This document shows positions 11,391 to 42,183 of a stretch of DNA of 64,000 nt, one piece after another; the first letter of the stretch is position 1, and each line of letters opens with the position of its first letter. The DNA comes from a virus. The DNA is taken from IMG/VR virus record IMGVR_UViG_3300017917_003379; one strand, 5' to 3'. The notes beneath the pieces were generated by a model. It made no database searches, was not told the DNA's origin, and saw only the letters and a list, made by a program, of their open reading frames with translations. Made by a program: the position numbers and the translations under genes.

Positions 11391-11426
11391 TATTTATTGG
11401 CACAATATTTTAATTATATTTGCCAA

Positions 11427-11813
11427 ATGGAATTTATTACTGAAGTAAAACGTTTACAAAAACTAGCAGGAATATTAACTGAACAAGAAAAACAACCAGA
11501 AGAAGAAATTTCTTCTGCTGATACTCCTGAAACTCCATCTGGTTCTATTACTAAGGCTGAAGCAAAACAGCTTATAAAAGGAACAAAAGGTAAATTCTTT
11601 ACTGTTACTTTCATTAAAAAAGACGGCACTACTCGTGTTATGAATGCCCGTTTAGGTGTAAAAGCATACCTTAAAGGAGGAGAACTTCCTTATGATCCTG
11701 AAGCAAAAGGATTAATACCTGTATTTGATATTCCTAAACGTGAATACAGAATGGTGAATTTAAATACTATTATTAAGTTAAAGATTGGTAATAACGAATA
11801 CGATGTAAAATGA
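11427..11813 (+). CDS. SH3/WYL-like small domain protein with class C tag
   Basis: ITEVKRLQKLAGILTE; FFTVTFIKKDGTTRVMNARLG; ATG 11427. Confidence 0.6.
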   Translation: MEFITEVKRLQKLAGILTEQEKQPEEEISSADTPETPSGSITKAEAKQLIKGTKGKFFTVTFIKKDGTTRVMNARLGVKAYLKGGELPYDPEAKGLIPVFDIPKREYRMVNLNTIIKLKIGNNEYDVK

Positions 11814-11864
11814 TTAAACTAATCCACATAAATACGATGTAAAATGATTAAACTAACCCACATA
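11797..11864 (+). repeat. 34-bp tandem duplication at gene junction
   Basis: aatacgatgtaaaatgattaaactaa(t/c)ccacata at 11797-11830 and 11831-11864, 33/34 identical. Confidence 0.95.
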
Positions 11865-13883
11865 TTAGAAAATATACTATTTGAATATAGTCAAGCTCAA
11901 ATTGACAAAACTATTAAAAGATGGGAAAATGAACCTAACTTTGATAAAAATGTCGCTTTAAATTTAATAAAAACATTTGATAATAAAAAAAGTGGATTAT
12001 CAAGTAAATTAGATTTAGTAGTATTACCTGATAAACTAAAACAAGGGAATAATTATCTTAATATAGATCTATATTCATATGAAGATATGAAACGATTAAT
12101 AAATTCTATCCCTGAAAATCCTGAAACTGTTAAAAAAACAGCTATTAATAGATTTGTAGAGTTATTTGGAATAAATAAACAAACTGCTCAATCATATGTT
12201 GCTCGTTTTTTATATAATAAAGATAAATTAAAATTAGCAGCAAAAGAAGGACTAGAAGATATAGGAGTAACTAAAGAAGAAGTATTAAATTTAATCCCTA
12301 AAAAACTTCAACGAAATGAAGCATTTTTAGATCCACGTAACTGGAATTGGATTTCATTTGAACAAATAACAGATGCTCTATTCCCTAGTCAAAAAACTTC
12401 AGAAGATAATATTAACTTAGCTACTGCAGAAGGTGATAAAGTGTATGATAAAGATGGAATAGAAATATATAAAGGAGATGATATTCAAAAATGTATATCT
12501 TATAATCCTGTTATAGAAAAAACAAAAAAGAAAAAATACGGGTGGTGTGTAACTCAAGTAGGAAATACTAATTATGATTTTTATAGATTTAAAAATCAAG
12601 CCCCTACTTTTTATTTTGTATTTGATAGAAACAAACCTTCTAGCCCCGAACATGCTCTTTTTGATGATGAATGGCATGCTTTTGTAATACAAGTAACTGC
12701 TGATAAGAAAACATATATAGTAACAGGAGCTAATAATAGAAGAGATATTGATACTGGAGATAAAGGATGGGAAGGTATAGCAAACATAGTACCTCCTGAT
12801 ACATGGAATAAAATTAAAAATTTAAAAGATTATTTTGTACCTGTACCCTTATCTGCTGTAGAAAGAGCAAGAAAATATGCTTCTGGGATGGATTTATCTT
12901 TAGATGAATTTAAAGAACTTTCTCAAGATGAAAAGATATTATATATACAAGGAAAAGCTTCTAAAAATCAAATATCTACTGATATTTTAAAAATCTTACC
13001 AAAATATAAAATATCATATCAGGGTAAAACTACAACATTAGCTAATATTGCTATAGATAGTGGACAAGAAATTCCTTATTCTGTATTGAAAGATAACGAA
13101 GCTTTAGCTAAAAGATATGCTATATTTAGATTTAGACATACTAATTATGGTAATTTACCTATTCCCCTTCCTTTTGTAAAATATTTAGACGAACCTGCTA
13201 AAGAAAAATATTTAAAAACATTCGATAATAATCTTACATTTGAATATATAGAGAAATATTTTGGAGAAAAATCAGCTCAAAAATATGTAAATGAACAAAT
13301 CAAAACTCTTAACTATCTCCCCCCAGGTGCTATAAAATATATTACAGATCCTAAAATAAAAGATTTATATTTATCTTATAGTAAATTATTCAAAAATTGG
13401 CAAAATTCGGCTAATACTAATATTGATGAAGAAAGATTAGAAAATTCAAAACAAATGCCTATACAGGAAATCGATCCTGTTCCTATAATGTATGATGATT
13501 GGAAAGAATTTTCTAATAAAGAAAAACAAATTATATATAATTTAGCAAAAACTGCAGATAACAATACGGAAGAATATTTAACAGTTAGTTATGCTGTACC
13601 CTTCTTTTTACAAGATGGTGAACAAAAATACGCTCTACTCCCAGAAGATGATACTTATGAAAATTGGGTAATAACCGATATGAATGGAAATATAATATCC
13701 GAATTTAAATCAATCGAATCTATATCATTAAAAAATAAACCTGTATATGGTGGTTACCCAGATTATAGTAATATAGAAAATGCTAAAAGGATATATAAAT
13801 TGTCTGATTTGCAGATAAATGGTAAACCTGTTTCTTTAAAAGAAATAAAACGTATATTAAAATTAGCAGGAATATTACGTTAA
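11844..13883 (+). CDS. Large hypothetical protein, class A tag at N-terminus and class C tag at C-terminus
   Basis: MIKLTHILENILFE ... SLKEIKRILKLAGILR. Confidence 0.8.
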   Translation: MIKLTHILENILFEYSQAQIDKTIKRWENEPNFDKNVALNLIKTFDNKKSGLSSKLDLVVLPDKLKQGNNYLNIDLYSYEDMKRLINSIPENPETVKKTAINRFVELFGINKQTAQSYVARFLYNKDKLKLAAKEGLEDIGVTKEEVLNLIPKKLQRNEAFLDPRNWNWISFEQITDALFPSQKTSEDNINLATAEGDKVYDKDGIEIYKGDDIQKCISYNPVIEKTKKKKYGWCVTQVGNTNYDFYRFKNQAPTFYFVFDRNKPSSPEHALFDDEWHAFVIQVTADKKTYIVTGANNRRDIDTGDKGWEGIANIVPPDTWNKIKNLKDYFVPVPLSAVERARKYASGMDLSLDEFKELSQDEKILYIQGKASKNQISTDILKILPKYKISYQGKTTTLANIAIDSGQEIPYSVLKDNEALAKRYAIFRFRHTNYGNLPIPLPFVKYLDEPAKEKYLKTFDNNLTFEYIEKYFGEKSAQKYVNEQIKTLNYLPPGAIKYITDPKIKDLYLSYSKLFKNWQNSANTNIDEERLENSKQMPIQEIDPVPIMYDDWKEFSNKEKQIIYNLAKTADNNTEEYLTVSYAVPFFLQDGEQKYALLPEDDTYENWVITDMNGNIISEFKSIESISLKNKPVYGGYPDYSNIENAKRIYKLSDLQINGKPVSLKEIKRILKLAGILR

Positions 13884-14853: not shown

Positions 14854-15363
14854 ATGGAACAACACATTAATGAAATTCGTAGAATGCAACAATTAGCAGG
14901 TATTAATGAAATTAAAGTATCTCAACCGACAAATTCAAAAAATAATAATATTAGTTTATATAATTTTTTAAATAGACATATTGAAGAATTTGCTAAAGAT
15001 CAACTTCAAACAAATGAAAATTTATCAATATTTGTTTTTAATGAATATTATAATTGGGATACTAATCCTGCAAATTTAGAAGATGAAAATTATCCATACG
15101 ATACAGAATTTAAAGATATGCCTCAACCTATTCAACAAGATATGATAAATTATTTAGTAGAAAAAGGATTAGAATATTATGGGGAATGGAAATCAGAAGA
15201 AGATAACGATAAAACTTACGGAATAGAATGGAATTTAGATTACGGTATGGTATATAATTGGACAAATAAAGCCTACCCAGGACCTGCAGAAGATTTGCAT
15301 CATGGTTGGATTGAACAAAAGTTTAAAGGAATAATATTTTATGTTTTATATTTTAATGTATAG
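14854..15363 (+). CDS. Acidic hypothetical protein, class C tag
   Basis: HINEIRRMQQLAGINEIKVSQP. Confidence 0.75.
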   Translation: MEQHINEIRRMQQLAGINEIKVSQPTNSKNNNISLYNFLNRHIEEFAKDQLQTNENLSIFVFNEYYNWDTNPANLEDENYPYDTEFKDMPQPIQQDMINYLVEKGLEYYGEWKSEEDNDKTYGIEWNLDYGMVYNWTNKAYPGPAEDLHHGWIEQKFKGIIFYVLYFNV

Positions 15364-15969: not shown

Positions 15970-16281
15970 ATGAAAAAACATATTAACGAAATTTATAGAA
16001 TGCAGCAATTAGCTGGTATTAATGAAATACGAGTAGCAACTCCTGGAAAGAGTCACTATTTGAATTTTTCTCAAAATGATGTAATTAATATTTTAACTAA
16101 TAACGAAATAGATATAGATGATGAAGAAGGAATAGATACAGATTCAGAAGAATGGATGGATGTGTTAAGTGATATAATTGGAAAAAATGCATATGATCAA
16201 GATAATTGGACTGAAGAGGATCATATGAAAGTTGGAAAATTTATAAAGGTTGTGGAAGAAATGGGCATTGAATTTATATAA
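15970..16281 (+). CDS. Acidic hypothetical protein, class C tag
   Basis: HINEIYRMQQLAGINEIRV. Confidence 0.75.
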   Translation: MKKHINEIYRMQQLAGINEIRVATPGKSHYLNFSQNDVINILTNNEIDIDDEEGIDTDSEEWMDVLSDIIGKNAYDQDNWTEEDHMKVGKFIKVVEEMGIEFI

Positions 16282-16318: not shown

Positions 16319-16630
16319 ATGAAACAATATATTAACAAACATAGAATGCAGCAGCTAGCTGGTATTAATGAAATCAAAGTATCTCAACCTGTTAGAATGT
16401 GGGATTGGAATATTGAAGAATTTGGTTATTATGATCCATTAAATAAAACATTTACAGTAGAATCAGGAGATGCATTTGCTGATTATATGGATACAGAATT
16501 TCCTGATTGGCTTAATAATGAATATGTTGCTAAAAAAGGAATAGAAAAATACACTAAAGATATTAAAAACGCGGTAAAAAAAGAATACGGTTCTGATGTA
16601 ACAATTATAGGAGATAATTTTTCATATTAA
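16319..16630 (+). CDS. Hypothetical protein, class C tag
   Basis: HRMQQLAGINEIKVSQP. Confidence 0.75.
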   Translation: MKQYINKHRMQQLAGINEIKVSQPVRMWDWNIEEFGYYDPLNKTFTVESGDAFADYMDTEFPDWLNNEYVAKKGIEKYTKDIKNAVKKEYGSDVTIIGDNFSY

Positions 16631-21993: not shown

Positions 21994-22344
21994 ATGAAAC
22001 AACCAATTAATGAAATTAAAAGAATGCAGCAACTAGCGGGCATTAATGAAATTAAAATACCTACACCTGGAGGTAAAGATGGAGTATTATATAGGAAATT
22101 AAAAAATGCAGGTTTATTTGATAAATATTTTGATATTTATGAAATTTACGATTATGGAACAGCTTTACAAGAAATAGAAGCGTATGAAATACAAAATAAT
22201 TTAGCTTATGAAATAGCAAAAGAAAAAGGATTTAAAGGTAGTTTTGGTGATCTTGTCAATAATGAAGAATTAAATTCAGAGTTGAATCGTTTAGCTGATA
22301 GTTTTGTAAAACAATTTGCTAAAGAAAAATTTAATATAACTTAA
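21994..22344 (+). CDS. Hypothetical protein, class C tag
   Basis: PINEIKRMQQLAGINEIKIP. Confidence 0.75.
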   Translation: MKQPINEIKRMQQLAGINEIKIPTPGGKDGVLYRKLKNAGLFDKYFDIYEIYDYGTALQEIEAYEIQNNLAYEIAKEKGFKGSFGDLVNNEELNSELNRLADSFVKQFAKEKFNIT

Positions 22345-27486: not shown

Positions 27487-28485
27487 ATGAAAGTTAAACA
27501 ACTACGTGAACTAATTCGTGAAGCAATCCATGAAACATTAAAAGAAGCTGAAATTTCTCCACAAGAAAAAGCAGCTAAAGATGCTGAAATAAATTCCATA
27601 AATAAACAAATTCAAGCTTTACAAGCTAAAAAATCTGATCTTTCTTCAGGACGTGCATCTGTAGTATCTGAAACTGGATTAAAAGAAATGGCTCGTACAC
27701 CCATTAAATATAAATTATCTGATAATTATCAAGATAAAGTTTCTCAATTACCTTATGCTGGCTCTGAAAAAAGAATGAAATGGATAAATGGTATTATTGA
27801 TTACATTAGTCAAGAAGGATCAACAGATATTACATCAGTAGCTAAAAATAAATTTAACGTTCCTCAACCTCGTATAGCAGATTATGCTAGAGATATGATT
27901 CGTTTAGGTATTCTTGAACCAGAAACCTCAGGAGTTGTACCACAATTTATGCAATCTAACGATAAAGAAAAAACAACAGATGATTCAGAATCATCTACAT
28001 TAGATATGGGAAATTTATCAAAATATTTCTCACCAGTTTCTAATGATGATAATGGAAATGAAGAAGATTTTAATACTGAAGAAGAACCTACAATAGGTGA
28101 TATAGATAATAAACCTGTATCTACTTCTAGTATGTCTGATGAAGACTATAATGCATGGGATAAGTATTATGACTTAAAAACTAAACTAAATGGTGTTAAA
28201 TCAGATTTGAATAAAATAACTCGTAGTAAAAAAAGAGGTAGTGTTGCTGGTGATATTAAAGATAAACCATCTACTGAAGAACAACGCTTACGTGATTTGA
28301 AAAAATCCTTAGAAGATAGAATCAATACTTTAGTACAAAATTCTGATTATTTAAAGAAAAAAACCGGACAAGAAACAACACCCACTCCTGAAATAGAAGA
28401 TATTGAAGATGATGAAACAATAGATGAATCTTTCGACTCATATCAACTTAGAAAAATGCAATACTACGCTGGTATTAAAAAATAA
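27487..28485 (+). CDS. Protein with class B N-tag, wHTH-like domain and class C C-tag
   Basis: MKVKQLRELIREAIHETLKE; LKE/MAR; QLRKMQYYAGIKK. Confidence 0.75.
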   Translation: MKVKQLRELIREAIHETLKEAEISPQEKAAKDAEINSINKQIQALQAKKSDLSSGRASVVSETGLKEMARTPIKYKLSDNYQDKVSQLPYAGSEKRMKWINGIIDYISQEGSTDITSVAKNKFNVPQPRIADYARDMIRLGILEPETSGVVPQFMQSNDKEKTTDDSESSTLDMGNLSKYFSPVSNDDNGNEEDFNTEEEPTIGDIDNKPVSTSSMSDEDYNAWDKYYDLKTKLNGVKSDLNKITRSKKRGSVAGDIKDKPSTEEQRLRDLKKSLEDRINTLVQNSDYLKKKTGQETTPTPEIEDIEDDETIDESFDSYQLRKMQYYAGIKK

Positions 28486-29980: not shown

Positions 29981-31555
29981 ATGAATATAAAAGATATAAT
30001 TAAACAAGAATATATTAAATGTGCCATGGATCCGGTACATTTTTTTCGTAAATACTGTTACATTACCCACCCTGTAAAAGGAAGAGTATTATTCCATTTA
30101 TACCCATTCCAAGAAGAAACATTAGGTAATTTTAGACAACATCGTTTCTCCATTATAAATAAATCCCGCCAGTTAGGTATTTCTACATTAGTAGCAGGAT
30201 ATGCTTTATGGACTATGTTGTTTAATAAAGATAAAACAGTATTATGTATAGCTACTAAACAAGAAACTGCTAAAGGTATGGTTGAAAAAGTACAGTTTAT
30301 GTACAATAACTTACCTGCTTGGCTACGTGGAAATCAAAAACCATTATCTGATAATAAATTATCACTTAAATTAGCTAATAATTCTCAAATTGTAGCTACA
30401 TCTGCCGCTTCAGATGCTGGTCGTTCTTATGCAGTATCTTTATTACTAATAGATGAGGCTGCGTTTATTGAAGGTATTGATCGAATTTATACAAGTATTA
30501 AACCAACAATTGCTACTGGTGGAGGAATCATTGCATTGTCTTCTCCTAATGGTATTGGTAATTGGTTTCATAAAATGTATACTGAAGCCCAAATAGGAAA
30601 AAATGATTTTAAAGCTATAGAATTAAAATGGAATCTTCATCCTGATCGAGATGAAAAGTGGGAAGCAACAGAAAGAGCAAATATGTCACCACGTGAATTT
30701 GCTCAAGAATATGATTGTGACTTCCTCGGCTCTGGGAATTCAGTAATTGAACCAGATAATTTATCTTTTTATGAACAAACCTTTATACAAGATCCTGTAG
30801 AACGTCGTTTTATGGGTGGTGATTTTTGGATTTGGCAGTACCCTGATTATACTAAATCTTATATTGTATGTGCTGACGTGGCTCGTGGTGATGGTAGTGA
30901 CTATTCTGCGTTTCATGTCATTGATATTGAAGCATGTGAACAAGTTGCTGAGTATAAATCACAAATAGATACACGAACATACGGCAACATGCTTGTATCA
31001 GTAGCTAGTGAATATAACAATGCTCTACTAGTAGTAGAAAATGCAAATGTTGGTTGGGATGTAGTAAATACTATTATAGAAAAAGGATATCAAAATTTAT
31101 ATTATTCACCTCGTGCATATGGTGAAATGCATATGGATAAATGGTTAGCTAAAATAGATAATGAACAAACTGTCCCTGGATTTACTACATCAGCTAAAAC
31201 AAGACCTCTTGTTATCTCCAAAATGGAAGCGTATATTCGAGATAGAGTATTTACTTTTAGATCTAAACGATTATTAGAAGAATTAAGAGTATTCGTTTGG
31301 CAACATGGTAAAGCTCAAGCACAAAGTGGATATAATGATGATTTAGTTATGTCATTAGGTATTGGATTATTTGCTAGAGATACAGGTGTTAAATTTCACC
31401 AACAAGGTTTAGATTTAGCTCGTGCTTCTTTAGGTGGAATTTCTAATACTATTCATAATATGGGTAAAATGCCAATGTTATCAAATGGTCAATCTAATCC
31501 ATATAAGATAGAAACACAACATGGTATTGAAGATATTACATGGTTGTTAGGTTAA
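29981..31555 (+). CDS. terL: Terminase large subunit (T4 gp17-like)
   Basis: KSRQLGIST Walker A; LLIDEAAF Walker B; SSPNG; ADVARG.G.DYS; NDDLVMS. Confidence 0.95.
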   Translation: MNIKDIIKQEYIKCAMDPVHFFRKYCYITHPVKGRVLFHLYPFQEETLGNFRQHRFSIINKSRQLGISTLVAGYALWTMLFNKDKTVLCIATKQETAKGMVEKVQFMYNNLPAWLRGNQKPLSDNKLSLKLANNSQIVATSAASDAGRSYAVSLLLIDEAAFIEGIDRIYTSIKPTIATGGGIIALSSPNGIGNWFHKMYTEAQIGKNDFKAIELKWNLHPDRDEKWEATERANMSPREFAQEYDCDFLGSGNSVIEPDNLSFYEQTFIQDPVERRFMGGDFWIWQYPDYTKSYIVCADVARGDGSDYSAFHVIDIEACEQVAEYKSQIDTRTYGNMLVSVASEYNNALLVVENANVGWDVVNTIIEKGYQNLYYSPRAYGEMHMDKWLAKIDNEQTVPGFTTSAKTRPLVISKMEAYIRDRVFTFRSKRLLEELRVFVWQHGKAQAQSGYNDDLVMSLGIGLFARDTGVKFHQQGLDLARASLGGISNTIHNMGKMPMLSNGQSNPYKIETQHGIEDITWLLG

Positions 31556-31585: not shown

Positions 31586-33481
31586 ATGGCTGAACAAAAT
31601 ACAGGCTTATTTAACAGATTAAAACGATTATTCTCTACAGATGTTATTATTAGAAATGTTGGAGGAAATCAATTAAAAACAATAGATGTTGATAGAATCC
31701 AAGCATACGGTAATGTTAAAACCAATGCTTTAATTGATAGATTCACCAAGTTACATCGCTATGGTGCTAACATGCCATACAACCCAACAATGAATTATCA
31801 AACACTTCGCATTCAGTTATATACTGACTATGAAGCAATGGATACAGAATCAATTATTGCTTCTGCTCTTGATATTGTAGCTGATGAGTCTACTTTAAAA
31901 AACGAAGCTGGAGAAATATTACAAATTAGAAGTGCTGATGAAAATACTCAACGTATTCTATATAATTTATTCTATGATGTGTTAAATATTGAATTTAACC
32001 TATGGTTATGGATTCGAAATATGTGTAAATATGGTGATTTTTATTTACACCTTGAAATTGCTGAAAAATTTGGTGTTTACAATGTAACACCATTATCTGT
32101 TTATGATATGGTACGTGAGGAAGGTGTAGATCCTCAAAATCCATCCTATGTGTGTTTTAGAATTGATCCTATGGTTATTGCAGCTGGTGGTATTAATTCA
32201 CGTGTTAAGGATAGAGATGGTAAAATTAAATTTGAAAACTACGAGATAGCTCATTTTAGATTATTAACTGATGCTAACTATCTTCCTTATGGTAGATCAT
32301 ATATTGAACCTGCTCGTAAATCATACAAACAATATGTATTAATGAAAGATGCTATGTTATTACATCGCATCACTCGCGCCCCAGAAAAACGTATTTTCTA
32401 CGTTGATATTGGAAATTTACCACCTAATGAGGTTGATGGATATATGGAAAGTTTAAAGCAAAAAATGCAAAAAACACCATTCATTGATCGCAATACAGGT
32501 GAATATAATCTTCGTTATAACATGATGAATGTTATGGAAGACTTCTATATTCCACAACGTGGTGCTAACAGCAACACTAAAATAGACACATTAAAAGGTT
32601 TAGAATATAACGCTATTGATGATGTAAACTTTTTACGTGATGAAATGTTAGCTGCTCTTAAAGTACCTAAAGCATTCTTTGGTTTTGAAAAAGACTTGAC
32701 TGGTAAGGCTACTTTAGCAGCTGAAGATATTCGTTTTGCTCGTACAGTAGAACGTATACAACGTATTGTTTTATCTGAACTATATAAAATAGCTTTAGTA
32801 CATTTATATACACAAGGATATGATGGTGTTTCATTAAGTAATTTTGAATTACATTTAACAACTCCTTCTATCATATATGAACAAGAAAAAATAGCATTAT
32901 GGAAAGAAAAAATAGGATTAGCTAAAGATATCCAAGATTCTAAATTACTTCCTTCAGATTGGATTTATGATAATGTATTCCAATTTAGTGAAGATCAATA
33001 TGATGAATATCGTGACTTAATTATCGAAGACATGAAACGTACCTTCCGTTTATCTCAAATTGAAAACGAAGGTAATGACCCAGCTAAATCTGGTAAATCT
33101 TATGGTACACCTCATGATTTAGCCTCATTGTATGGTAAAGGTAGAATGGGTACAGGTGAAATGGGAATTGTACCTCCAGGATATGATGAAAAAAATCCTG
33201 TTGGACGTCCTAAAGAAAAAACATCCATTATGGGTACACAACGTGACCCATTAGGTAAAGATAGATTAGGTAGTAATGAAATGGGTGCTTTATACACAGC
33301 TAATATTCCTGGTAAAGGAGAAGAAAATGGTACACCAAAAGGAGGTTCACCTTTAGCATTAGCTGAATCTTTAAAATATAAAAATTTACTTAAAGAAATA
33401 CGTACAGATATGGAAAAAAAACAAAACGTATTTGAACAGGAATCTTCATTATTAGACGAAAAAAATATTAAGAACATATAA
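31586..33481 (+). CDS. Portal protein (T4 gp20-like)
   Basis: RITRAPEKRIFYVDIGNLP; MEDFYIP.R; IDTL.G; ALKVPK; EDIRF. Confidence 0.95.
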   Translation: MAEQNTGLFNRLKRLFSTDVIIRNVGGNQLKTIDVDRIQAYGNVKTNALIDRFTKLHRYGANMPYNPTMNYQTLRIQLYTDYEAMDTESIIASALDIVADESTLKNEAGEILQIRSADENTQRILYNLFYDVLNIEFNLWLWIRNMCKYGDFYLHLEIAEKFGVYNVTPLSVYDMVREEGVDPQNPSYVCFRIDPMVIAAGGINSRVKDRDGKIKFENYEIAHFRLLTDANYLPYGRSYIEPARKSYKQYVLMKDAMLLHRITRAPEKRIFYVDIGNLPPNEVDGYMESLKQKMQKTPFIDRNTGEYNLRYNMMNVMEDFYIPQRGANSNTKIDTLKGLEYNAIDDVNFLRDEMLAALKVPKAFFGFEKDLTGKATLAAEDIRFARTVERIQRIVLSELYKIALVHLYTQGYDGVSLSNFELHLTTPSIIYEQEKIALWKEKIGLAKDIQDSKLLPSDWIYDNVFQFSEDQYDEYRDLIIEDMKRTFRLSQIENEGNDPAKSGKSYGTPHDLASLYGKGRMGTGEMGIVPPGYDEKNPVGRPKEKTSIMGTQRDPLGKDRLGSNEMGALYTANIPGKGEENGTPKGGSPLALAESLKYKNLLKEIRTDMEKKQNVFEQESSLLDEKNIKNI

Positions 33482-35712: not shown

Positions 35713-36831
35713 ATGAAAAGCATTAAACAACAGTATATAGATTTAAAAGAAGGTAAAATGTCACAAGCAAACTTTATGCGTAATTTACGCATGACTTTAC
35801 CTCAATATGTAACTAACGTAACTTCATATAATGATGCTGTTAAAATTCTTCGCAACAAAGGTATTTTAAATGAAAGTCTTATTAAGCAACTAGAACAAGG
35901 TATTGAAGTAGAAAAAGAACACACTAGTGATGAAATTAAAGCTGCTGAAATTGCTTTAGATCATTTAAAAGAAAAACCTGACTATTATACTAAATTAAAA
36001 AAAGCCGGTTTAGAAGAAAATAAAAATTGGACTAACGCTAGCGGAAAAGAATTATATAGTCAATTTAAAGAAATTGATAACCTAAATAGCCAAGAAGTAT
36101 TAATTGGTATTGATTTTGAAATTGAACAAAATCATGAGTTATCTAAAGAAGAAGCTGTTAAGATTGTTATTAAAAATTTAAAGAAAAACCCATACTATTA
36201 TACTACTAGTTTAATGGCTGGTAAAAAATTTGAAGAAATACCCACTATTGGAAAATTAACACCTGGTTCTGATAAAATGAAAGAATTTAAAGGTGAAAAC
36301 GATGCTATTGATAAGGACAACATGATGAAACCTGTTAAAGGTATTGATAAACCTAAAAAAGACTCTGATAAAGGTGGTGAAAAAAATAAAATGGTTAAAA
36401 ATGTTTCTTCTATGTCTTTAGTTGCTAAAACATCTCGTGGTGTGCAAAAAATGGCTGCTACTGGTGAAAAAATGAAAACTATCAGAGAAGCAGAAGAAAA
36501 GAAAAATACAGATACATCTTCTAATACAAAAAGTGTACCTAGTACTATTTTTAGCAAAAATGCTAAGTTAAGTGCTAGTATTAGTAAATTAATGGATAAA
36601 GATCCAAATGCTGTTAGTAAACAAAATAGACTTAAAGATATCATTCGTGAATTAATTAAGCAAGAAATGTATGATGGAATGGAACCAATGAGCCGTAAAG
36701 AATTAGATGAAACTGATATATATGGTATTGCTGGTAATCCTGAAAAAGAAAAAGAAGCACGTCTTGCCTCTATAAAAAAATCTAAACCCTCTACAACAAC
36801 AACTAAAAGTACAAAAAAGCCTAAAAAATGA
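35713..36831 (+). CDS. Protein with DUF5661-like repeats (putative prohead core)
   Basis: GIEVEKEHT..EIALDHLKE.PDYYTKL plus a degenerate second copy; LKDIIRELIKQE. Confidence 0.6.
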   Translation: MKSIKQQYIDLKEGKMSQANFMRNLRMTLPQYVTNVTSYNDAVKILRNKGILNESLIKQLEQGIEVEKEHTSDEIKAAEIALDHLKEKPDYYTKLKKAGLEENKNWTNASGKELYSQFKEIDNLNSQEVLIGIDFEIEQNHELSKEEAVKIVIKNLKKNPYYYTTSLMAGKKFEEIPTIGKLTPGSDKMKEFKGENDAIDKDNMMKPVKGIDKPKKDSDKGGEKNKMVKNVSSMSLVAKTSRGVQKMAATGEKMKTIREAEEKKNTDTSSNTKSVPSTIFSKNAKLSASISKLMDKDPNAVSKQNRLKDIIRELIKQEMYDGMEPMSRKELDETDIYGIAGNPEKEKEARLASIKKSKPSTTTTKSTKKPKK

Positions 36832-37442
36832 AACAGCTTTTAATAGAACATATTCCCTTTAGTATAGCTAAACTTACTCTTACTGAAAGTAAGGGTGGTA
36901 GAATGGTATTAGAAGGTAAACTGCAAGAAGCCGAACAAAAAAATGGTAACGGCCGTGTTTATCCTAGAGAAGTATTACAACGCGAAGTAGAAAAATATAT
37001 TAAAGGGCCTATATCCCAAAACAATGCCCTAGGTGAACTAGACCATCCAGAATCATCTGTAATTAATTTATCTAACGTTTCTCATAATATTAAAAAAGTA
37101 TGGTGGGATGATAATAATTTAATGGGTCGTTTAGAATTACTTAACACACCTTCTGGTAAAATTGCTATGGAATTAGTAAGCGCTGGTATTCCTTTAGGAA
37201 TATCATCTCGCGGTATGGGTAGCGTTAAGCAGCTAGGTGAAACAGTTGAAGTACAAGATGACTTTGAATTATTATGTTGGGATCTGGTATCTATACCCAG
37301 CACACCAAATGCTTACATGCAACCTGTTGGTTCATTAAAAGAAGGCAAACAATTTAATACTATTACTAAAGACTATAGCAGAGTAAATTCACTTATTACA
37401 GAAATTATTTGCAGTCAAACTGGTATTTGTCCTTTATGTTAA
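36828..37442 (+). CDS. Prohead protease (T4 gp21-like)
   Basis: NGNGRVYP; ALGELDHP; GISSRGMGS; WDLVS.PS. Confidence 0.95.
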   Translation: MKQLLIEHIPFSIAKLTLTESKGGRMVLEGKLQEAEQKNGNGRVYPREVLQREVEKYIKGPISQNNALGELDHPESSVINLSNVSHNIKKVWWDDNNLMGRLELLNTPSGKIAMELVSAGIPLGISSRGMGSVKQLGETVEVQDDFELLCWDLVSIPSTPNAYMQPVGSLKEGKQFNTITKDYSRVNSLITEIICSQTGICPLC

Positions 37443-38255: not shown

Positions 38256-38672
38256 ATGGCCCAATTAATTAACGAAGCAAAAAGAATGCAATTTTTAGCT
38301 GGAATTATTACTGAATCTCAAATAAATGAATTAAATGAACCTGAAAAGGAACTAGTTGATGTTATTTTAGGTGAAGGTATTAATGAAGGAAAATTTAATC
38401 CTAAAGAAATATTAGCTAAATTAATAGCTGTAGCTAAAAAAGGTTTACTTACTGCTACTATTTTATCTACTGTTTTAGCATCTTGTAATTTTGGTCCATC
38501 TGTTGATGAAACTATTAAGAATAGAGTAGAACAACATAAAATTATAAATAGTATGGAATTAGACCAATGGAAAAGAGATGAAACTTTTAAAAATAAAATG
38601 GATAGCCTTAAACAAGATTTAAAAGCAATTGAATATCAATCTGGACTTTCTAATCCTAAAAATCCTTTCTAA
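38256..38672 (+). CDS. Class C-tagged protein with internal lipobox-like segment
   Basis: LINEAKRMQFLAGIITE; KKGLLTATILSTVLAS-C. Confidence 0.7.
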   Translation: MAQLINEAKRMQFLAGIITESQINELNEPEKELVDVILGEGINEGKFNPKEILAKLIAVAKKGLLTATILSTVLASCNFGPSVDETIKNRVEQHKIINSMELDQWKRDETFKNKMDSLKQDLKAIEYQSGLSNPKNPF

Positions 38673-38674
38673 GT

Positions 38675-39268
38675 ATGTTAATAAAAGAAGCAAAACGATT
38701 ACAACAATTAGCTGGTATCATTACTGAAGCTGAGCAAGTTGATAGTGCTGAACAAGCCGCTGAAAAAGGATTAATAGATTTTTTAGGAGACATTAAATCA
38801 GCAGCATCAACTATCAAACCATCTCCTAAAGATGGAAAAATACAAGAAGGACTTTTAACATTATTTGCCATCACTGCTGGTGCTCCAGGTTTATTAAATT
38901 TACTAGGTAAAGGAGCTGATTTAATAGGTCAATATTTTTCACAAGGTAATGTAACTTCTACTAAAGTAGGAGCAGCTTTACAAAAAGCAGGACATAGCTT
39001 AGAACATAAGTATATTGAAGCAATTGCCTTTCTATTAAAAAAAGCATATCCTAAAGATTATGGAAATCAAGATCCATTTGATAAATCATCTCCATTACAC
39101 GATACAGCTCATGGAATTTATGCTGCTATACTAGCAGCGGCCGCTGTGGGATCAGGAATAGAAGCAACTAATGCTGTTAATTTAATTGTAAAAGGATTAG
39201 AAGGAGGAGCAGCAGCTTTTAAAACAGCTGAAGTTGTACAATTAGTACAAAAAATAACAACCGTTTAA
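38675..39268 (+). CDS. Class C-tagged protein with hydrophobic helices
   Basis: LIKEAKRLQQLAGIITE; IQE/GLLTLFAITAG; GIYAAILAAAAVG. Confidence 0.7.
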   Translation: MLIKEAKRLQQLAGIITEAEQVDSAEQAAEKGLIDFLGDIKSAASTIKPSPKDGKIQEGLLTLFAITAGAPGLLNLLGKGADLIGQYFSQGNVTSTKVGAALQKAGHSLEHKYIEAIAFLLKKAYPKDYGNQDPFDKSSPLHDTAHGIYAAILAAAAVGSGIEATNAVNLIVKGLEGGAAAFKTAEVVQLVQKITTV

Positions 39269-39425: not shown

Positions 39426-40505
39426 ATGAGTAACAAAAACTTATTCAAAGAGGCTATCGCCGACGCCAAAGCCGTTCGCGAAGCAGCGTTAGCAAACGCA
39501 AAAGCCGCTCTTGAAGAAGCTTTAACTCCCAAACTTCAGTCTATGTTAGCTGCAAAGCTTAATGAAATGGCTGATGAAGAAGAGCTTGAAGAAGCAAGAG
39601 ACGACGAAAATGAAATGGAAGAAGGAATGCATCCTGACATTACCGGAGACACTATTCAAGACAAATACCGTGCAACTGGTGCTGCTCTTGAAGAAATGGG
39701 GATGGATATGGAAATAGATGAAGAAGACTTCGACTTATCTGAAATTTTAGCTGAACTTGAAGATGAAGAAGAAATTGAAGAAGATTTTGATTTATCTGAA
39801 ATCTTAGCTGAATTGAAAGAAGAAAAAGAAGAAGAGGAAGAGGAAGAAGAGGAAGAAGAAGAGAAAGAAGAGGAAGATGAAGAATTAGAGATCAAAGACA
39901 TGAGTGTTGAAGATCTTAAAGATCTTATCCGCGACATCGTATCCCAAGAAATGGAAGAAGAAGCTCCTGCTGGTGAAATGGAAGCTGAACCTTCTATGGA
40001 AATGGGTGGTGAAGAAATGACTAGCGATGATGAAGATGAGATTGATTTAGAAGAACTTTTAGCTGAATTAGATTCTTTAGACGGAACATCCGAGCTTGAA
40101 GAAGCTAAGAAGAAAAAAGCTAAGCAAGATGAAAAAGCTAAAAAAGAAAAAGAAAAAGAACTTGCTGAGGCTATTAGAACTATTAACACCCTTCGTAAAG
40201 AATTAAACGAAGTTAACTTATTAAATGCTAAGTTAATTTATGTTAACAAAATCTTTAAAGCTAAGAATTTAACTGAATCACAAAAAGTAAAAGTAATTTC
40301 TTCGTTTGACCAAGCAACAACTGTAAAAGAAGCTAAAGTTGTATTTGAATCCTTAAATATGGCTTTAACAACAGCTCCTGCCAAAAAGCAAATTAAAGAA
40401 TCTTTAGGATTTGCTTCTAAAGCTGCTGGTGTAGCTCCTAAAAAAGTAATTGTTGAGTCTAATGACGTAATTGCTCGTATGCAAAAACTTGCAAACATTA
40501 AATAA
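39426..40505 (+). CDS. Prohead scaffold/core protein (gp22-like role)
   Basis: Very acidic coiled coil directly upstream of MCP; many LxE sites; ends VIARMQKLANIK. Confidence 0.85.
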   Translation: MSNKNLFKEAIADAKAVREAALANAKAALEEALTPKLQSMLAAKLNEMADEEELEEARDDENEMEEGMHPDITGDTIQDKYRATGAALEEMGMDMEIDEEDFDLSEILAELEDEEEIEEDFDLSEILAELKEEKEEEEEEEEEEEEKEEEDEELEIKDMSVEDLKDLIRDIVSQEMEEEAPAGEMEAEPSMEMGGEEMTSDDEDEIDLEELLAELDSLDGTSELEEAKKKKAKQDEKAKKEKEKELAEAIRTINTLRKELNEVNLLNAKLIYVNKIFKAKNLTESQKVKVISSFDQATTVKEAKVVFESLNMALTTAPAKKQIKESLGFASKAAGVAPKKVIVESNDVIARMQKLANIK

Positions 40506-40542: not shown

Positions 40543-42183
40543 ATGAACATCCAACAATTATTAGAGTCGTCTAACCAATATAAGGTTATTGCTGACGACG
40601 CAAGAAAACTTAACTCCAAGTGGGTTAAATCTGGCCTTTTAGAAGGTTTAAAGAATGAGAACGATCGCAACACTATGGCGATGTTACTCGAAAACCAAGC
40701 TAAGCAATTAGTAACTGAAGCTTCTCAAACTGGTACTGCTACCATCGGTGGTGGTGGATATGGTCAGGAAGCTTGGAATGGTGTAGCTTTACCATTAGTA
40801 CGTCGTGTATTTGGTGAAATCGCCGCTAAAGAATTCGTTAGTGTACAGCCTATGAATTTACCTTCTGGTCTTGTATTCTATTTAGATTTCAAATACGGTA
40901 GCAACTTCCCCGATCCTTTCACCCAGAATGGTTCTTTATATGGTGCTAACGCTACTACTAACGTAACTGACATTGCTTCTCAGTCGCTTTATGGTGCTGG
41001 TCGCTTTGGTTACACTATCAACCAATTCTCTGCTTCTATTACCAATGCTGGTACTAGTTCAGCTACATGGGCTGATTTCAACTTTGATTCTGACTATTCA
41101 GCTTCTGCTGCTGCTGGTTCTTGGAAGAAAATCTTAGTTCCCCTTCCTTCTACTGCTGATCAGCTTGGCGTTCGTGCTTTCACTATCGCTTCTGGTTCTA
41201 TCGGTGTAAGTGATGTATTACAAGCTTTCACTACTGTAACTAACAGTACTGCTTCGTTTATTGTTACTGGTTCGCTTGTAGCTGCTAATATGAGTCCTAC
41301 TGCTGCTACTGTAACATTATATTTCAATGTTGCTCCTCTTTCTACTGCTCGTGGTGATTTTGAAGATGCTAGCGGTGCTGGTTATCCTTCATACAACAGC
41401 ACAGCTGCTGGTGCAGGTAGTGCAATTGCTATTCCTGAAATCAATGTTCAGTTAAAATCTGAGCCTATTGTTGCTAAAACTCGTAAGTTAAAAGCACAGT
41501 GGACTCCAGAATTCGCTCAGGATCTTAACGCTTACCATAGTGTAGATGCTGAAGCTGAATTAACTGGTATTCTATCTCAGTACATCTCTATGGAAATCGA
41601 CCTCGAAATTCTAGATATGTTAATCCAAAATGCTTTCACTAAAGATTACTGGAGTGCTGTCAACAACGTAACTATCGACTCTAACGGTGTTACTAATCCT
41701 GCTGCTTTAGCTTCTGGTTATTACAACACTCAGGGTGGTTGGTTCCAAACTTTAGGTACTAAACTTCAGAAAGTATCTAACAAAATTCATCAGTTAACTC
41801 TTCGTGGTGGCGCTAACTTCCTCGTAACTTCTCCCACTGTAGCTACTATCCTTGAATCTATTCCTGGATTTGCTGCTGATGGTGATGGTGAAAAGATGGA
41901 ATTCAACTTCGGTATTCAGAAGGTTGGTTCTCTCAATAGCCGTTACAAGGTTTATAAGAACCCATACATGACTGAAAACGTAATCTTAATGGGTTACAAA
42001 GGTGCTCAGTTCCTTGAGTGTGGTGCTGTATTTGCTCCATATGTGCCTTTAATCATGACTCCTCTTCTTTACGATCCTAATACCTTCACTCCACGTAAAG
42101 GTTTGATGACTCGTTACGCTAAGAAGATGATTAGACCGGACTATTATGGGAAGATTTATGTTAGTGGTTTAAATACTCTCTAA
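40543..42183 (+). CDS. Major capsid protein (T4 gp23-like)
   Basis: LLENQ; LPLVRR; VQPM..PSGLVF; AKTRKLKAQWT.E.AQDL.A.H; FAPYVPL; TPRKGLMTRY. Confidence 0.97.
   Translation: MNIQQLLESSNQYKVIADDARKLNSKWVKSGLLEGLKNENDRNTMAMLLENQAKQLVTEASQTGTATIGGGGYGQEAWNGVALPLVRRVFGEIAAKEFVSVQPMNLPSGLVFYLDFKYGSNFPDPFTQNGSLYGANATTNVTDIASQSLYGAGRFGYTINQFSASITNAGTSSATWADFNFDSDYSASAAAGSWKKILVPLPSTADQLGVRAFTIASGSIGVSDVLQAFTTVTNSTASFIVTGSLVAANMSPTAATVTLYFNVAPLSTARGDFEDASGAGYPSYNSTAAGAGSAIAIPEINVQLKSEPIVAKTRKLKAQWTPEFAQDLNAYHSVDAEAELTGILSQYISMEIDLEILDMLIQNAFTKDYWSAVNNVTIDSNGVTNPAALASGYYNTQGGWFQTLGTKLQKVSNKIHQLTLRGGANFLVTSPTVATILESIPGFAADGDGEKMEFNFGIQKVGSLNSRYKVYKNPYMTENVILMGYKGAQFLECGAVFAPYVPLIMTPLLYDPNTFTPRKGLMTRYAKKMIRPDYYGKIYVSGLNTL

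What the first reader, a model, noticed from the sequence alone, without database searches (positions are those of the whole stretch)
39426..40505. Cargo tags copy motifs of the scaffold protein
Seen: the scaffold ends VES-NDVIARMQKLANIK, matching the class C tag RMQQLAGI. It also contains DLKDLIRDIVSQE, matching class B (cf. LKDIIRELIKQE in 35713). The class C motif sits at either end of other proteins: C-terminal in 11844 (LKE-IKRILKLAGILR) and 27487 (IDE..LRKMQYYAGIKK), N-terminal in seven others. Established: in P22 and herpesviruses the scaffold C-terminal helix binds coat protein. Inference: cargo proteins mimic the scaffold's coat-binding or oligomerisation helices to enter the prohead, and LxE cleavage then releases them.
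Basis: partly seen in the sequence, partly recalled or inferred. Interest (0 to 1): 0.85.

Follow-up and report, generated by a model that had tools for sequence, protein, structure and literature searches.

The report
Cargo tags copy the scaffold's tail
In this T4-like phage, the short helix at the very end of the head-scaffold protein also sits, as a protease-removable tag, on nine unrelated proteins, which suggests a testable way for phages to load proteins into their heads.

Summary
The window is part of a 155-kb T4-like phage with a portal, S77 prohead protease, acidic scaffold (39426-40505) and gp23 capsid gene.

- **Motif in this genome:** the scaffold ends IVE|SNDVIARMQKLANIK. The core I-x-R-[ML]-Q-x-L-A-[GN]-I occurs 11 times in the proteome against 0.08 expected, always at a protein end.
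- **Cleavage sites:** seven window proteins carry it N-terminally, followed by I/L-x-E. Two carry it C-terminally, preceded by L/I-x-E. Their bodies are unrelated.
- **Conservation:** the tail is present in all 80 related viral contigs, in 146 of 150 distant representatives, and in phages immuto, Mel-JY01, LR756508 and RM378. Tags occur in most lineages but not all, so the tail looks ancestral.
- **Blind test:** a profile built only from other phages' scaffold tails recovers exactly this phage's tags.
- **Class B match:** it is weaker but statistically enriched. Class A-like islands also exist.
- **Structure:** AlphaFold models the tail as a short helix on a disordered, roughly 30-residue tether.

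It is a new variant of T4 capsid-targeting sequences and of scaffold-tail mimicry. First readers noted the same motif in other genomes of this scan.

The parts
39426..40505 (+). Putative prohead scaffold (core) protein, 359 aa. It is 30% Asp+Glu and has 22 [LIV]xE sites.
   Evidence: It lies between the S77 protease and the gp23 capsid gene. Site density is 3.4 times the proteome average. There is a weak profile match to T4 gp22 around LTESQKxKV (E 0.008). No Pfam or PHROG family hits it.
40458..40502 (+). Scaffold C-terminal tail NDVIARMQKLANIK (aa 345-359); class C core RMQKLANI at 40476-40499.
   Evidence: AF2 models helix 345-355 after a disordered stretch 316-344. The tail is conserved in 80 of 80 viral loci and 146 of 150 representatives.
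40449..40457 (+). I-V-E protease-type site immediately upstream of the tail. A second conserved site, IKE|S, lies at aa 323-325.
   Evidence: [IV][VI]E lies 6 residues before the motif in 29 of 39 distinct scaffold tails; alignment A2.
39906..39950 (+). Class B-like island VEDLKDLIRDIVSQE (aa 161-175) inside the acidic region.
   Evidence: It is a conservation island: L164 51/57, K165 46/57, I168 53/57, D170 45/57. Its profile retrieves class B tags. The position that is the cleaved Glu in the tags is Asp here, and Glu is not among the five commonest residues at that column.
39726..39818 (+). Two class A-like islands DFDLSEILAEL(E/K) (aa 101-112 and 120-131), in a tandem 19-aa duplication.
   Evidence: Tag-derived PSSM rank is 82-83 of about 47,000, which is suggestive only.
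40038..40073 (+). Third class A-like island EIDLEELLAELD (aa 205-216).
   Evidence: It is conserved. Its profile places two class A N-termini (47017, 7417) in the top ten non-self hits.
38256..38315 (+). N-terminal class C tag MAQLINEAKRMQFLAGIITE| of a 138-aa protein in the head module.
   Evidence: Homologues in relatives carry the same tag.
38675..38728 (+). N-terminal class C tag MLIKEAKRLQQLAGIITE| of a 197-aa protein.
11427..11483 (+). N-terminal class C tag MEFITEVKRLQKLAGILTE| (the likely true start of ORF 11397-11813).
14854..14910 (+). N-terminal class C tag ...RRMQQLAGINE|.
15970..16026 (+). N-terminal class C tag ...YRMQQLAGINE|.
16319..16372 (+). N-terminal class C tag ...HRMQQLAGINE|.
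21994..22050 (+). N-terminal class C tag ...KRMQQLAGINE|.
13845..13880 (+). C-terminal class C tag LKE|IKRILKLAGILR of the 679-aa protein 11844, which also has a class A N-terminus.
28429..28482 (+). C-terminal class C tag IDE|SFDSYQLRKMQYYAGIKK of the 332-aa protein 27487, which also has a class B N-terminus.
   Evidence: The family is conserved in relatives as ..LDEW...KMQYYAGIKK.
36628..36669 (+). Internal class B-like segment RLKDIIRELIKQEM in head-module protein 35713 (DUF5661).
36828..37442 (+). S77 (T4 gp21-type) prohead protease, the presumed enzyme cutting after [LIV]-x-E.
   Evidence: Pfam PF03420 at 2.9e-30; PHROG 207 at 1.4e-56.
40543..42183 (+). gp23-type major capsid protein, with an N-terminal propeptide ending ..QLVTE|A. 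It is a candidate receptor.
   Evidence: Pfam PF07068 at 5e-79; alignment A1.

Best explanation
The last ~15 residues of the scaffold protein form a short amphipathic helix (I-x-R-M-Q-K-L-A-N-I) on a flexible ~30-residue tether. I read this helix as the scaffold's docking peptide inside the assembling prohead. By analogy with phage 80alpha and the herpesviruses, its most likely receptor is the inner face or N-terminal propeptide region of the gp23-type capsid protein. Nine other proteins with unrelated bodies carry the same peptide at one end, so they dock at the same receptor and are built into the prohead as cargo or minor core proteins. When the S77 prohead protease is activated it cuts after the [LIV]-x-E site that always lies between peptide and body (IVE|S in the scaffold, INE| or ITE| after N-terminal tags, LKE| or IDE| before C-terminal tags). 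This frees the scaffold for removal and releases mature cargo. The scaffold tail is the ancestral copy, and the tags are later acquisitions that expanded in this genome. Shown here: the shared motif, its terminal placement, the adjacent cleavage-type sites, family-wide conservation and the predicted tethered helix. Inferred: binding, the identity of the receptor, packaging and cleavage.
For: - **Motif frequency:** 11 observed against 0.08 expected, and all terminal.
- **Tag-derived PSSM:** the scaffold tail ranks 8th of ~47,000 positions.
- **Blind profile:** a profile built from other phages' scaffold tails retrieves the seven N-terminal tags at ranks 2-8 and the two C-terminal tags at ranks 9 and 12. 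A scaffold N-terminal control profile retrieves nothing.
- **Conservation:** the tail is kept in immuto, Mel-JY01, LR756508 and RM378, in 80 of 80 IMG/VR loci and in 146 of 150 representatives of a family of about 3,000 clusters.
- **Cleavage sites:** 33 of 37 distinct N-terminal tags have [LIV]xE ending 3-4 residues from the motif's last residue, against a 19% background. All C-terminal tags have such a site 0-9 residues upstream.
- **Protein-level selection:** synonymous codons vary among the tags.
- **Modularity:** the tagged bodies are unrelated; all pairwise BLASTP E-values are 0.14 or higher.
- **Structure:** AF2 gives a helical domain, a disordered linker and a terminal helix, with mean pLDDT 81.
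- **Head module:** it includes an S77 protease.
- **Precedents:** T4 capsid-targeting sequences are removed at L/I-x-E, and T4 Alt is processed at both ends (PMC9026906). The 80alpha scaffold and SaPI1 CpmB share a C-terminal helix and hook that bind the same coat-protein site (PMC5644958). Herpesvirus scaffold C-termini bind the capsid protein, are cut off at the M site, and the protease precursor shares that tail (PMC12474303).
Against: There is no binding, packaging or cleavage evidence of any kind. T4 internal proteins enter the core before the shell is added and co-purify with gp22 (PMC9026906), which points to the scaffold core rather than the capsid protein as receptor. Tail and tags show no demonstrable co-variation: tails RWQMLAGI or RMQKLANI coexist with RMQQLAGI tags. 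Some relatives with the tail show no tags in the DNA examined (Mel-JY01 and RM378; G005). The scaffold assignment rests on synteny, composition and weak profile or fold similarity only.
Confidence: 0.42

Rival explanations
1. The peptide and the logic are the same, but the receptor is the scaffold core itself, for example the very conserved scaffold N-terminal helix (aa 1-48) or a bundle of tails. The tail would then drive scaffold-scaffold assembly, and tagged proteins would co-polymerise into the core as T4 internal proteins do, independently of the shell.
For: T4 internal proteins join the core before the shell and co-purify with gp22 (PMC9026906). The localisation mechanism in T4 is described as unresolved (PMC9958956). 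The scaffold also contains conserved internal islands resembling class A and B tags, which fits like-with-like helix packing. The B island has Asp where the tags have the cleaved Glu, and in T4 an Asp there blocks cleavage but not targeting (PMC9026906). In RB18 the internal-protein leader MKTYQEFI(A/T)E loosely resembles the gp22 N-terminus MLKEQLIAE.
Against: In every scaffold system with a solved interface, the C-terminal peptide contacts the coat protein (PMC5644958, PMC12474303). No interaction was tested here. The RB18 resemblance is largely the cleavage site itself.
Confidence: 0.33
2. The shared motifs are recognition or docking elements for the S77 protease (an extended cleavage context or exosite), not addressing signals. 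Tagged proteins would be protease substrates for some other reason, such as activation by processing.
For: Class A and B tags and the A-like scaffold islands share the spacing L-x-x-[IL]-[IL]-x-E. The scaffold is 3.4-fold enriched in [LIV]xE sites. Every tag adjoins such a site.
Against: The class C core is not itself a cleavage site. In the scaffold and the C-terminal tags it lies after the site, at the extreme end. The protease acts inside proheads, so substrates must still get in. The scaffold B island has an Asp that would not be cleaved.
Confidence: 0.1
3. The peptide serves a function unrelated to head assembly (binding a chaperone, membrane or host factor), or is an inherited leader without present function. 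In that case its presence on the scaffold is incidental.
For: No experiment links the tagged genes to the virion. Most lie outside the head module among genes of unknown function.
Against: The tail is conserved at the scaffold terminus across about 3,000 clusters. Synonymous variation shows peptide-level selection. The cleavage-site arrangement is strict at both termini. Two tagged genes sit between the protease and the scaffold.
Confidence: 0.08

Closest known systems
T4 capsid-targeting sequences (CTS) of internal proteins IPI-III and Alt
   Same: Both have a T4-type head module with an S77 protease. Both use short terminal propeptides on unrelated proteins, removed after L/I-x-E. Alt is processed at both ends, like the doubly tagged proteins 11844 and 27487.
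   Different: The sequence differs (MKTYQEFIAE against ..I.RMQQLAGI..). There are three tag classes instead of one. The tags are used at either terminus. Most importantly, one class is identical to the scaffold's own C-terminal peptide, a relation not described for T4, where the targeting mechanism is called unresolved (PMC9958956).
80alpha scaffold protein and SaPI1 CpmB (shared C-terminal helix and RIIK hook)
   Same: A second protein copies the scaffold's C-terminal amphipathic helix and uses the same docking site. The helix is about 11 residues at the extreme C-terminus.
   Different: CpmB is a pirate size-redirecting scaffold from another element, not cargo. It is a single copy, is C-terminal only, and has no protease site separating the peptide.
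Herpesvirus UL26 / UL26.5 and lambda C / Nu3 nested genes
   Same: A non-scaffold passenger (the protease) enters the procapsid because it carries the scaffold's C-terminal capsid-binding tail. The tail is cut off at a protease site (the M site).
   Different: Sharing arises there from nested in-frame genes, meaning the same DNA. Here, separate genes encode short copies with different codons, at N- or C-termini, on at least nine proteins.
Encapsulin cargo-loading peptides
   Same: Short terminal peptides at either end address unrelated cargo to the interior of an HK97-fold shell.
   Different: Encapsulins have no scaffold, no proteolytic removal and no sequence similarity.

Membership tests
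T4-type capsid-targeting sequence system | Head module with a gp20 portal, gp21/S77 protease and gp23 capsid protein | tested here: met
   PF07230 at 2.5e-67, PF03420 at 2.9e-30, PF07068 at 5e-79.
T4-type capsid-targeting sequence system | Short terminal propeptide bounded by an L/I-x-E site on otherwise unrelated proteins | tested here: met
   33 of 37 N-terminal tags have the site 3-4 residues from the motif's last residue, and all C-terminal tags have it 0-9 residues before. Bodies are unrelated.
T4-type capsid-targeting sequence system | Sequence similarity to the T4 CTS (MKTYQEFIAE) | tested here: not met
   RB18 internal-protein leaders were read. They have no resemblance to class C.
T4-type capsid-targeting sequence system | Demonstrated packaging into the head and removal of the propeptide | not testable with these tools
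   This needs virion proteomics or reporter fusions.
gp22-type prohead core scaffold | Gene between the prohead protease and the major capsid gene; acidic, helical, many protease sites | tested here: met
   The protein is 30% acidic with 22 [LIV]xE sites, and the modelled C-terminal third (aa 230-359) has a helical domain.
gp22-type prohead core scaffold | Sequence homology to T4 gp22 | tested here: inconclusive
   PHROG 237 is not hit even at E<=10. hhalign gives E 0.008 and probability 5% over 35 columns including LTESQKxKV. gp22 scaffolds appear among weak Foldseek hits.
Scaffold C-terminal coat-binding peptide (80alpha SP / CpmB, herpesvirus UL26.5) | Short amphipathic helix at the extreme C-terminus on a flexible linker, conserved across the family | tested here: met
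   AF2 model; conservation.
Scaffold C-terminal coat-binding peptide (80alpha SP / CpmB, herpesvirus UL26.5) | Physical contact with the major capsid protein | not testable with these tools
Scaffold C-terminal coat-binding peptide (80alpha SP / CpmB, herpesvirus UL26.5) | Other proteins gain entry or compete by carrying the same peptide | tested here: inconclusive
   The same peptide is present on nine other proteins. Entry or competition was not tested.

The most novel reading that the evidence does not exclude
The scaffold of this large, mostly uncultured phage family is a master template for three address peptides. These are the C-terminal helix (class C) and two kinds of internal amphipathic islands (A-like and B-like, the latter made uncleavable by Asp). 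Each of the three cargo tag classes copies one of them. About 30 unrelated proteins would then be sorted to distinct sites or stoichiometries in the prohead core and released by one protease. This would be a general rule (cargo addresses are copies of scaffold segments) that may also explain the unresolved T4 CTS mechanism.
Probability: 0.25. Interest if true: 0.85.

Novelty: new variant of a known kind. Interest (0 to 1): 0.62.

Why it matters
A 2023 review of the T4 head still calls the way proteins are localised into T4-type scaffolding cores mysterious. Here natural sequence data point to a concrete, testable rule: cargo proteins carry a copy of the scaffold's own docking peptide, detachable by the prohead protease and usable at either terminus. 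The family is large (about 3,000 sequence clusters) and has at least one cultured member, Flavobacterium phage immuto, so the rule can be tested with standard phage genetics, proteomics and cryo-EM. If it holds, it would allow head cargo (likely host-takeover or anti-defence proteins) to be predicted from sequence alone in many uncultured aquatic phages. It would also offer a second, orthogonal tag set for packaging foreign proteins in phage capsids.

Tried and rejected
- **Complex prediction:** No interaction test was made, and none was attempted by other means.
- **Co-variation of tail and tags:** the motif is too invariant. Where the tail differs (RWQMLAGI, RMQKLANI, RMKKLAGL) the tags stay RMQQLAGI-like.
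- **Variant-tail lineage:** a lineage with a divergent tail (..RMRE[IL]AFYS..; P0090, P0136) was traced. No canonical or variant tags were found, and no tagged genes lie between protease and scaffold. Only 17-25% fragments (25-42 kb) could be searched, so this is inconclusive.
- **Cargo annotation:** Pfam and PHROGs on the tagged proteins gave nothing informative. Only 11397 matched, and only to PHROGs of unknown function.
- **Fold search:** a Foldseek PDB search of the scaffold C-terminal model gave no significant match.
- **Literature:** full-text searches for the motif strings found no paper, and no virion proteomics was found for relatives.
- **Promoter-like motif:** ATATTTAT precedes both tagged genes and structural genes, but also genes in other parts of the genome. 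It does not establish co-expression.
- **DNA repeat or recent paralogy:** rejected, because codons differ and the bodies are unrelated.

Full report
**Context.** The window is bases 31999-95998 of a single 155,189-bp contig with about 30% G+C. Nearly all genes are on the + strand. The finding lies in a T4-type head module:

| Gene | Window coordinates | Evidence |
|---|---|---|
| Large terminase | 29981-31555 | |
| gp20-type portal | 31586-33481 | PF07230, 2.5e-67 |
| S77 prohead protease | 36828-37442 | PF03420, 2.9e-30 |
| Small ORFs | 38256 and 38675 | |
| Acidic ORF of the finding | 39426-40505 | |
| gp23-type capsid protein | 40543-42183 | PF07068, 5e-79 |

The nearest isolate is Flavobacterium phage immuto, with 58% capsid identity. 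More distant relatives are an uncultured 484-kb phage (LR756508), Microcystis phage Mel-JY01 and Rhodothermus phage RM378.

**Is 39426 the scaffold?** No Pfam or PHROG family hits it, and the T4 gp22 PHROG is missed even at E<=10. It does sit exactly where gp22 sits. It is 30% Asp+Glu and has 22 [LIV]-x-E sites, 3.4 times the proteome density. A profile-profile comparison with three T4-type gp22 proteins aligns 35 columns around a shared LTESQK-KV block (E 0.008, probability only 5%). gp22 scaffolds also recur among weak Foldseek hits. I accept the scaffold assignment on synteny and composition and regard homology to gp22 as likely but unproven. The immuto homologue is mis-annotated as 'DNA polymerase phi-like protein'.

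**The observation.**
- The class C regex gives 11 hits in the genome against 0.08 expected from shuffles. All are terminal, although terminal positions are only 18% of the proteome.
- Seven window ORFs carry the motif 8-19 residues from the listed start. This becomes 9 for ORF 11397 if translation starts at 11427, as the other tags suggest.
- ORFs 11844 and 27487 and the scaffold carry it within two residues of the C-terminus.
- The shared core extends to I-x-R-[ML]-Q-x-L-A-[GN]-I.
- Codons differ at synonymous positions among copies, so the peptide, not the DNA, is conserved.
- The bodies behind the tags show no similarity to each other.

**Cleavage-site arrangement.**
- N-terminal tags are followed by INE|, ITE| or LTE|.
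- C-terminal tags are preceded by LKE| (11844) or IDE| (27487).
- The scaffold tail is preceded by IVE|.
- Pooling this genome with 80 related loci, 33 of 37 distinct N-terminal tags have [LIV]-x-E ending 3-4 residues from the motif's last residue, against a 19% background. Every C-terminal tag has such a site 0-9 residues upstream.
- 29 of 39 distinct scaffold tails have it exactly 6 residues upstream.
- The capsid protein has the homologous ..LVTE|A site at the position of the T4 gp23 cleavage.

The peptide is therefore always separable from the body by a cut of the type made by T4 gp21 (L/I-x-E; PMC9026906).

**Relatives.**
- The scaffold tail is kept in immuto (..IISE|VSEQVSRWQKLAGIIK), Mel-JY01 (..ILNE|SNNVVERMKKLAGIVK), LR756508 (..ILNE|DVEMKSRMQKLADIS) and RM378 (..LERIKRLAGL).
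- It is also present in all 80 IMG/VR loci.
- 146 of the best 150 representatives carry it, out of a family of 3,008 clusters at E<=0.001.
- Many of these loci also carry N-terminal tags (MAQLINEAKRMQFLAGLITE.., MKTQLNEIKRMQQLAGLIKE..) and the C-terminally tagged ..LDEW...KMQYYAGIKK family.
- Immuto has two class C and one class A tagged genes.
- Complete relatives have 0-3 Q-x-L-A-G tags each, and G008 and LR756508 have one or two. The scan found none in Mel-JY01 or RM378.

The tail is therefore universal and the tags are patchy, so the tail is the older element. This genome, with seven N-terminal and two C-terminal copies in the window plus an eighth, N-terminal RLQYLANI outside it, has an expanded set.

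**A blind test.** I built position-specific profiles from the 56 other full-length scaffolds, leaving out this phage's scaffold, and scanned this phage's 228 proteins.
- **Tail profile:** it returns the seven N-terminal tags at ranks 2-8 and the two C-terminal tags at ranks 9 and 12, out of 46,068 positions.
- **B-island profile:** it places four N-terminal class B tags (all at residue 3) and 35713 aa 304 among the ten best non-self hits. I estimate the chance of four N-terminal hits in ten at about 1e-4 (my own estimate).
- **A-island profile (aa 205-216):** it places two class A N-termini (residue 1) in the top ten.
- **Control:** a profile from the scaffold N-terminus retrieves nothing.

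In the opposite direction, tag-derived PSSMs rank the tail 8th, the B island 35th and the A islands 82nd-83rd of about 47,000. Class C is decisive, class B is supported as an enrichment, and class A is only suggestive.

The A-like and B-like segments are conservation islands within an otherwise fluid acidic region. In the B island the residue corresponding to the cleaved Glu of the tags is Asp in 45 of 57 scaffolds, and Glu is not among the five commonest residues there. In the T4 CTS an Asp at that position blocks processing but not targeting (PMC9026906). This argues that the island is kept for binding rather than for cleavage.

**Structure.** An AlphaFold2 model of scaffold residues 230-359 used a 100-sequence alignment and reached mean pLDDT 81. 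It gives a confident helical domain (231-315), a disordered stretch (316-344) containing the two conserved sites IKE|S and IVE|S, and a terminal helix at 345-355. This closely matches the 80alpha scaffold, whose last 16 residues form an 11-residue amphipathic helix plus hook. That helix binds the coat protein N-arm and is copied by SaPI1 CpmB (PMC5644958). It also matches herpesvirus scaffolds, whose C-terminal 25 residues bind the capsid protein, are cut off at the M site, and are shared by the protease precursor (PMC12474303).

**Mechanism.**
- **Best reading (0.42):** the tail is the scaffold's docking peptide, most likely for the capsid protein's interior. Cargo proteins carrying a copy dock at the same site, are enclosed, and are released by the S77 protease.
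- **Close rival (0.33):** the logic is the same but the receptor is the scaffold core. T4 favours this, because its internal proteins enter the core before the shell and co-purify with gp22 (PMC9026906). The internal A and B islands also fit this reading.
- **Protease recognition only (0.10):** this fits the A-type spacing L-x-x-[IL]-[IL]-x-E. It does not fit class C, which lies beyond the site at the extreme end.
- **Unrelated function or inert leader (0.08):** this is hard to square with conservation across thousands of clusters and the strict site arrangement.

Co-variation gave no signal, because the motif hardly varies. A lineage with a divergent tail (..RMRE[IL]AFYS..) has no tagged genes next to the scaffold, but only fragments were available.

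**Comparison with what is known.** Capsid-targeting propeptides are known in T4, scaffold-tail mimicry in SaPI1, and tail sharing by nested genes in herpesviruses and lambda. Four things are new here:
- the targeting peptide is identical to the scaffold's own C-terminal peptide;
- it is encoded by separate genes on many unrelated proteins;
- it works in either orientation, with the protease site always on the body side;
- it coexists with two further tag classes that also resemble conserved scaffold segments.

T4-type gp22 tails (RB18 ..DIVSVYAKVASRF, P-RSM4 ..MSKYVDALARWSK, phi-ST2 ..MAAYLKAARTNR) have a loosely similar pattern, but I do not claim homology. The RB18 internal-protein leader MKTYQEFI(A/T)E loosely resembles the gp22 N-terminus MLKEQLIAE. 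That is a hint that T4 may follow the same rule with a different scaffold segment, but most of the resemblance is the cleavage site. No paper containing the motif strings was found. A 2023 review states that the mechanism localising proteins to the T4 core is unresolved (PMC9958956). Other first readers of this scan noted the same motif relation in four other genomes and twice on this genome. None had been followed up.

**Verdict.** It is a new variant of a known kind, with interest 0.62.

Noticed in passing
window 11844-13883 and 27487-28485: Two proteins are doubly tagged. ORF 11844 has a class A N-terminus (MIKLTHILEN..) plus a class C C-terminus. ORF 27487 has a class B N-terminus (MKVKQLRELIRE..) plus a class C C-terminus. 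This recalls T4 Alt, which is processed at both ends.
   Followed up: partly
whole genome, e.g. window 29957, 31559, 38225, 44416, 54563: The octamer ATATTTAT occurs 67 times on the + strand and 18 on the - strand. 48 of the 67 lie within 60 nt upstream of an ORF start, before structural genes, several tagged genes and genes in other regions. It is probably a phage promoter element.
   Followed up: partly
L001:18731-19972 (Flavobacterium phage immuto, immuto26A_204): The immuto scaffold homologue is annotated 'DNA polymerase phi-like protein', evidently a compositional artefact. It also carries a tandemly duplicated ~55-aa non-acidic insert (GFEQWLDSVSAQMDKFGKNNPTIQAIEKAV..) that this phage lacks.
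   Followed up: no
window 39720-39833: There is a tandem duplication of a 19-aa unit (EEDFDLSEILAEL..) inside the scaffold. Scaffold length varies from about 290 to 560 aa among relatives through changes in the acidic middle region.
   Followed up: no
window 38256-38672: Behind its class C tag, the 138-aa protein has a hydrophobic stretch ending in a lipobox-like LASC (..LLTATILSTVLASCNFG..). The neighbouring 197-aa protein (38675) is rich in Gly/Ala hydrophobic segments. Both sit where T4 has the small core proteins gp67 and gp68.
   Followed up: no
window 36828 and 40543: The protease starts MKQLLIE and the capsid protein starts MNIQQLLE. Both resemble the T4-type gp21 N-terminus ..EPQLLIE (read in RB18), so short N-terminal Q-L-L-x-E propeptides may be a fourth shared element.
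   Followed up: no
L108:8454-9722, L112:186-1424 (metagenome contigs): One lineage of the scaffold family has replaced the ..LAG(I/L) ending by ..RMRE(I/L)AFYS(A/Q)(K/T)H. It has no small tagged genes between protease and scaffold.
   Followed up: partly
L092 and L090 (Enterobacteria phage RB18): T4-type internal-protein leaders MKTYQEFI(A/T)E and MKSYAQFLNE loosely resemble the gp22 N-terminus MLKEQLIAE.
   Followed up: partly
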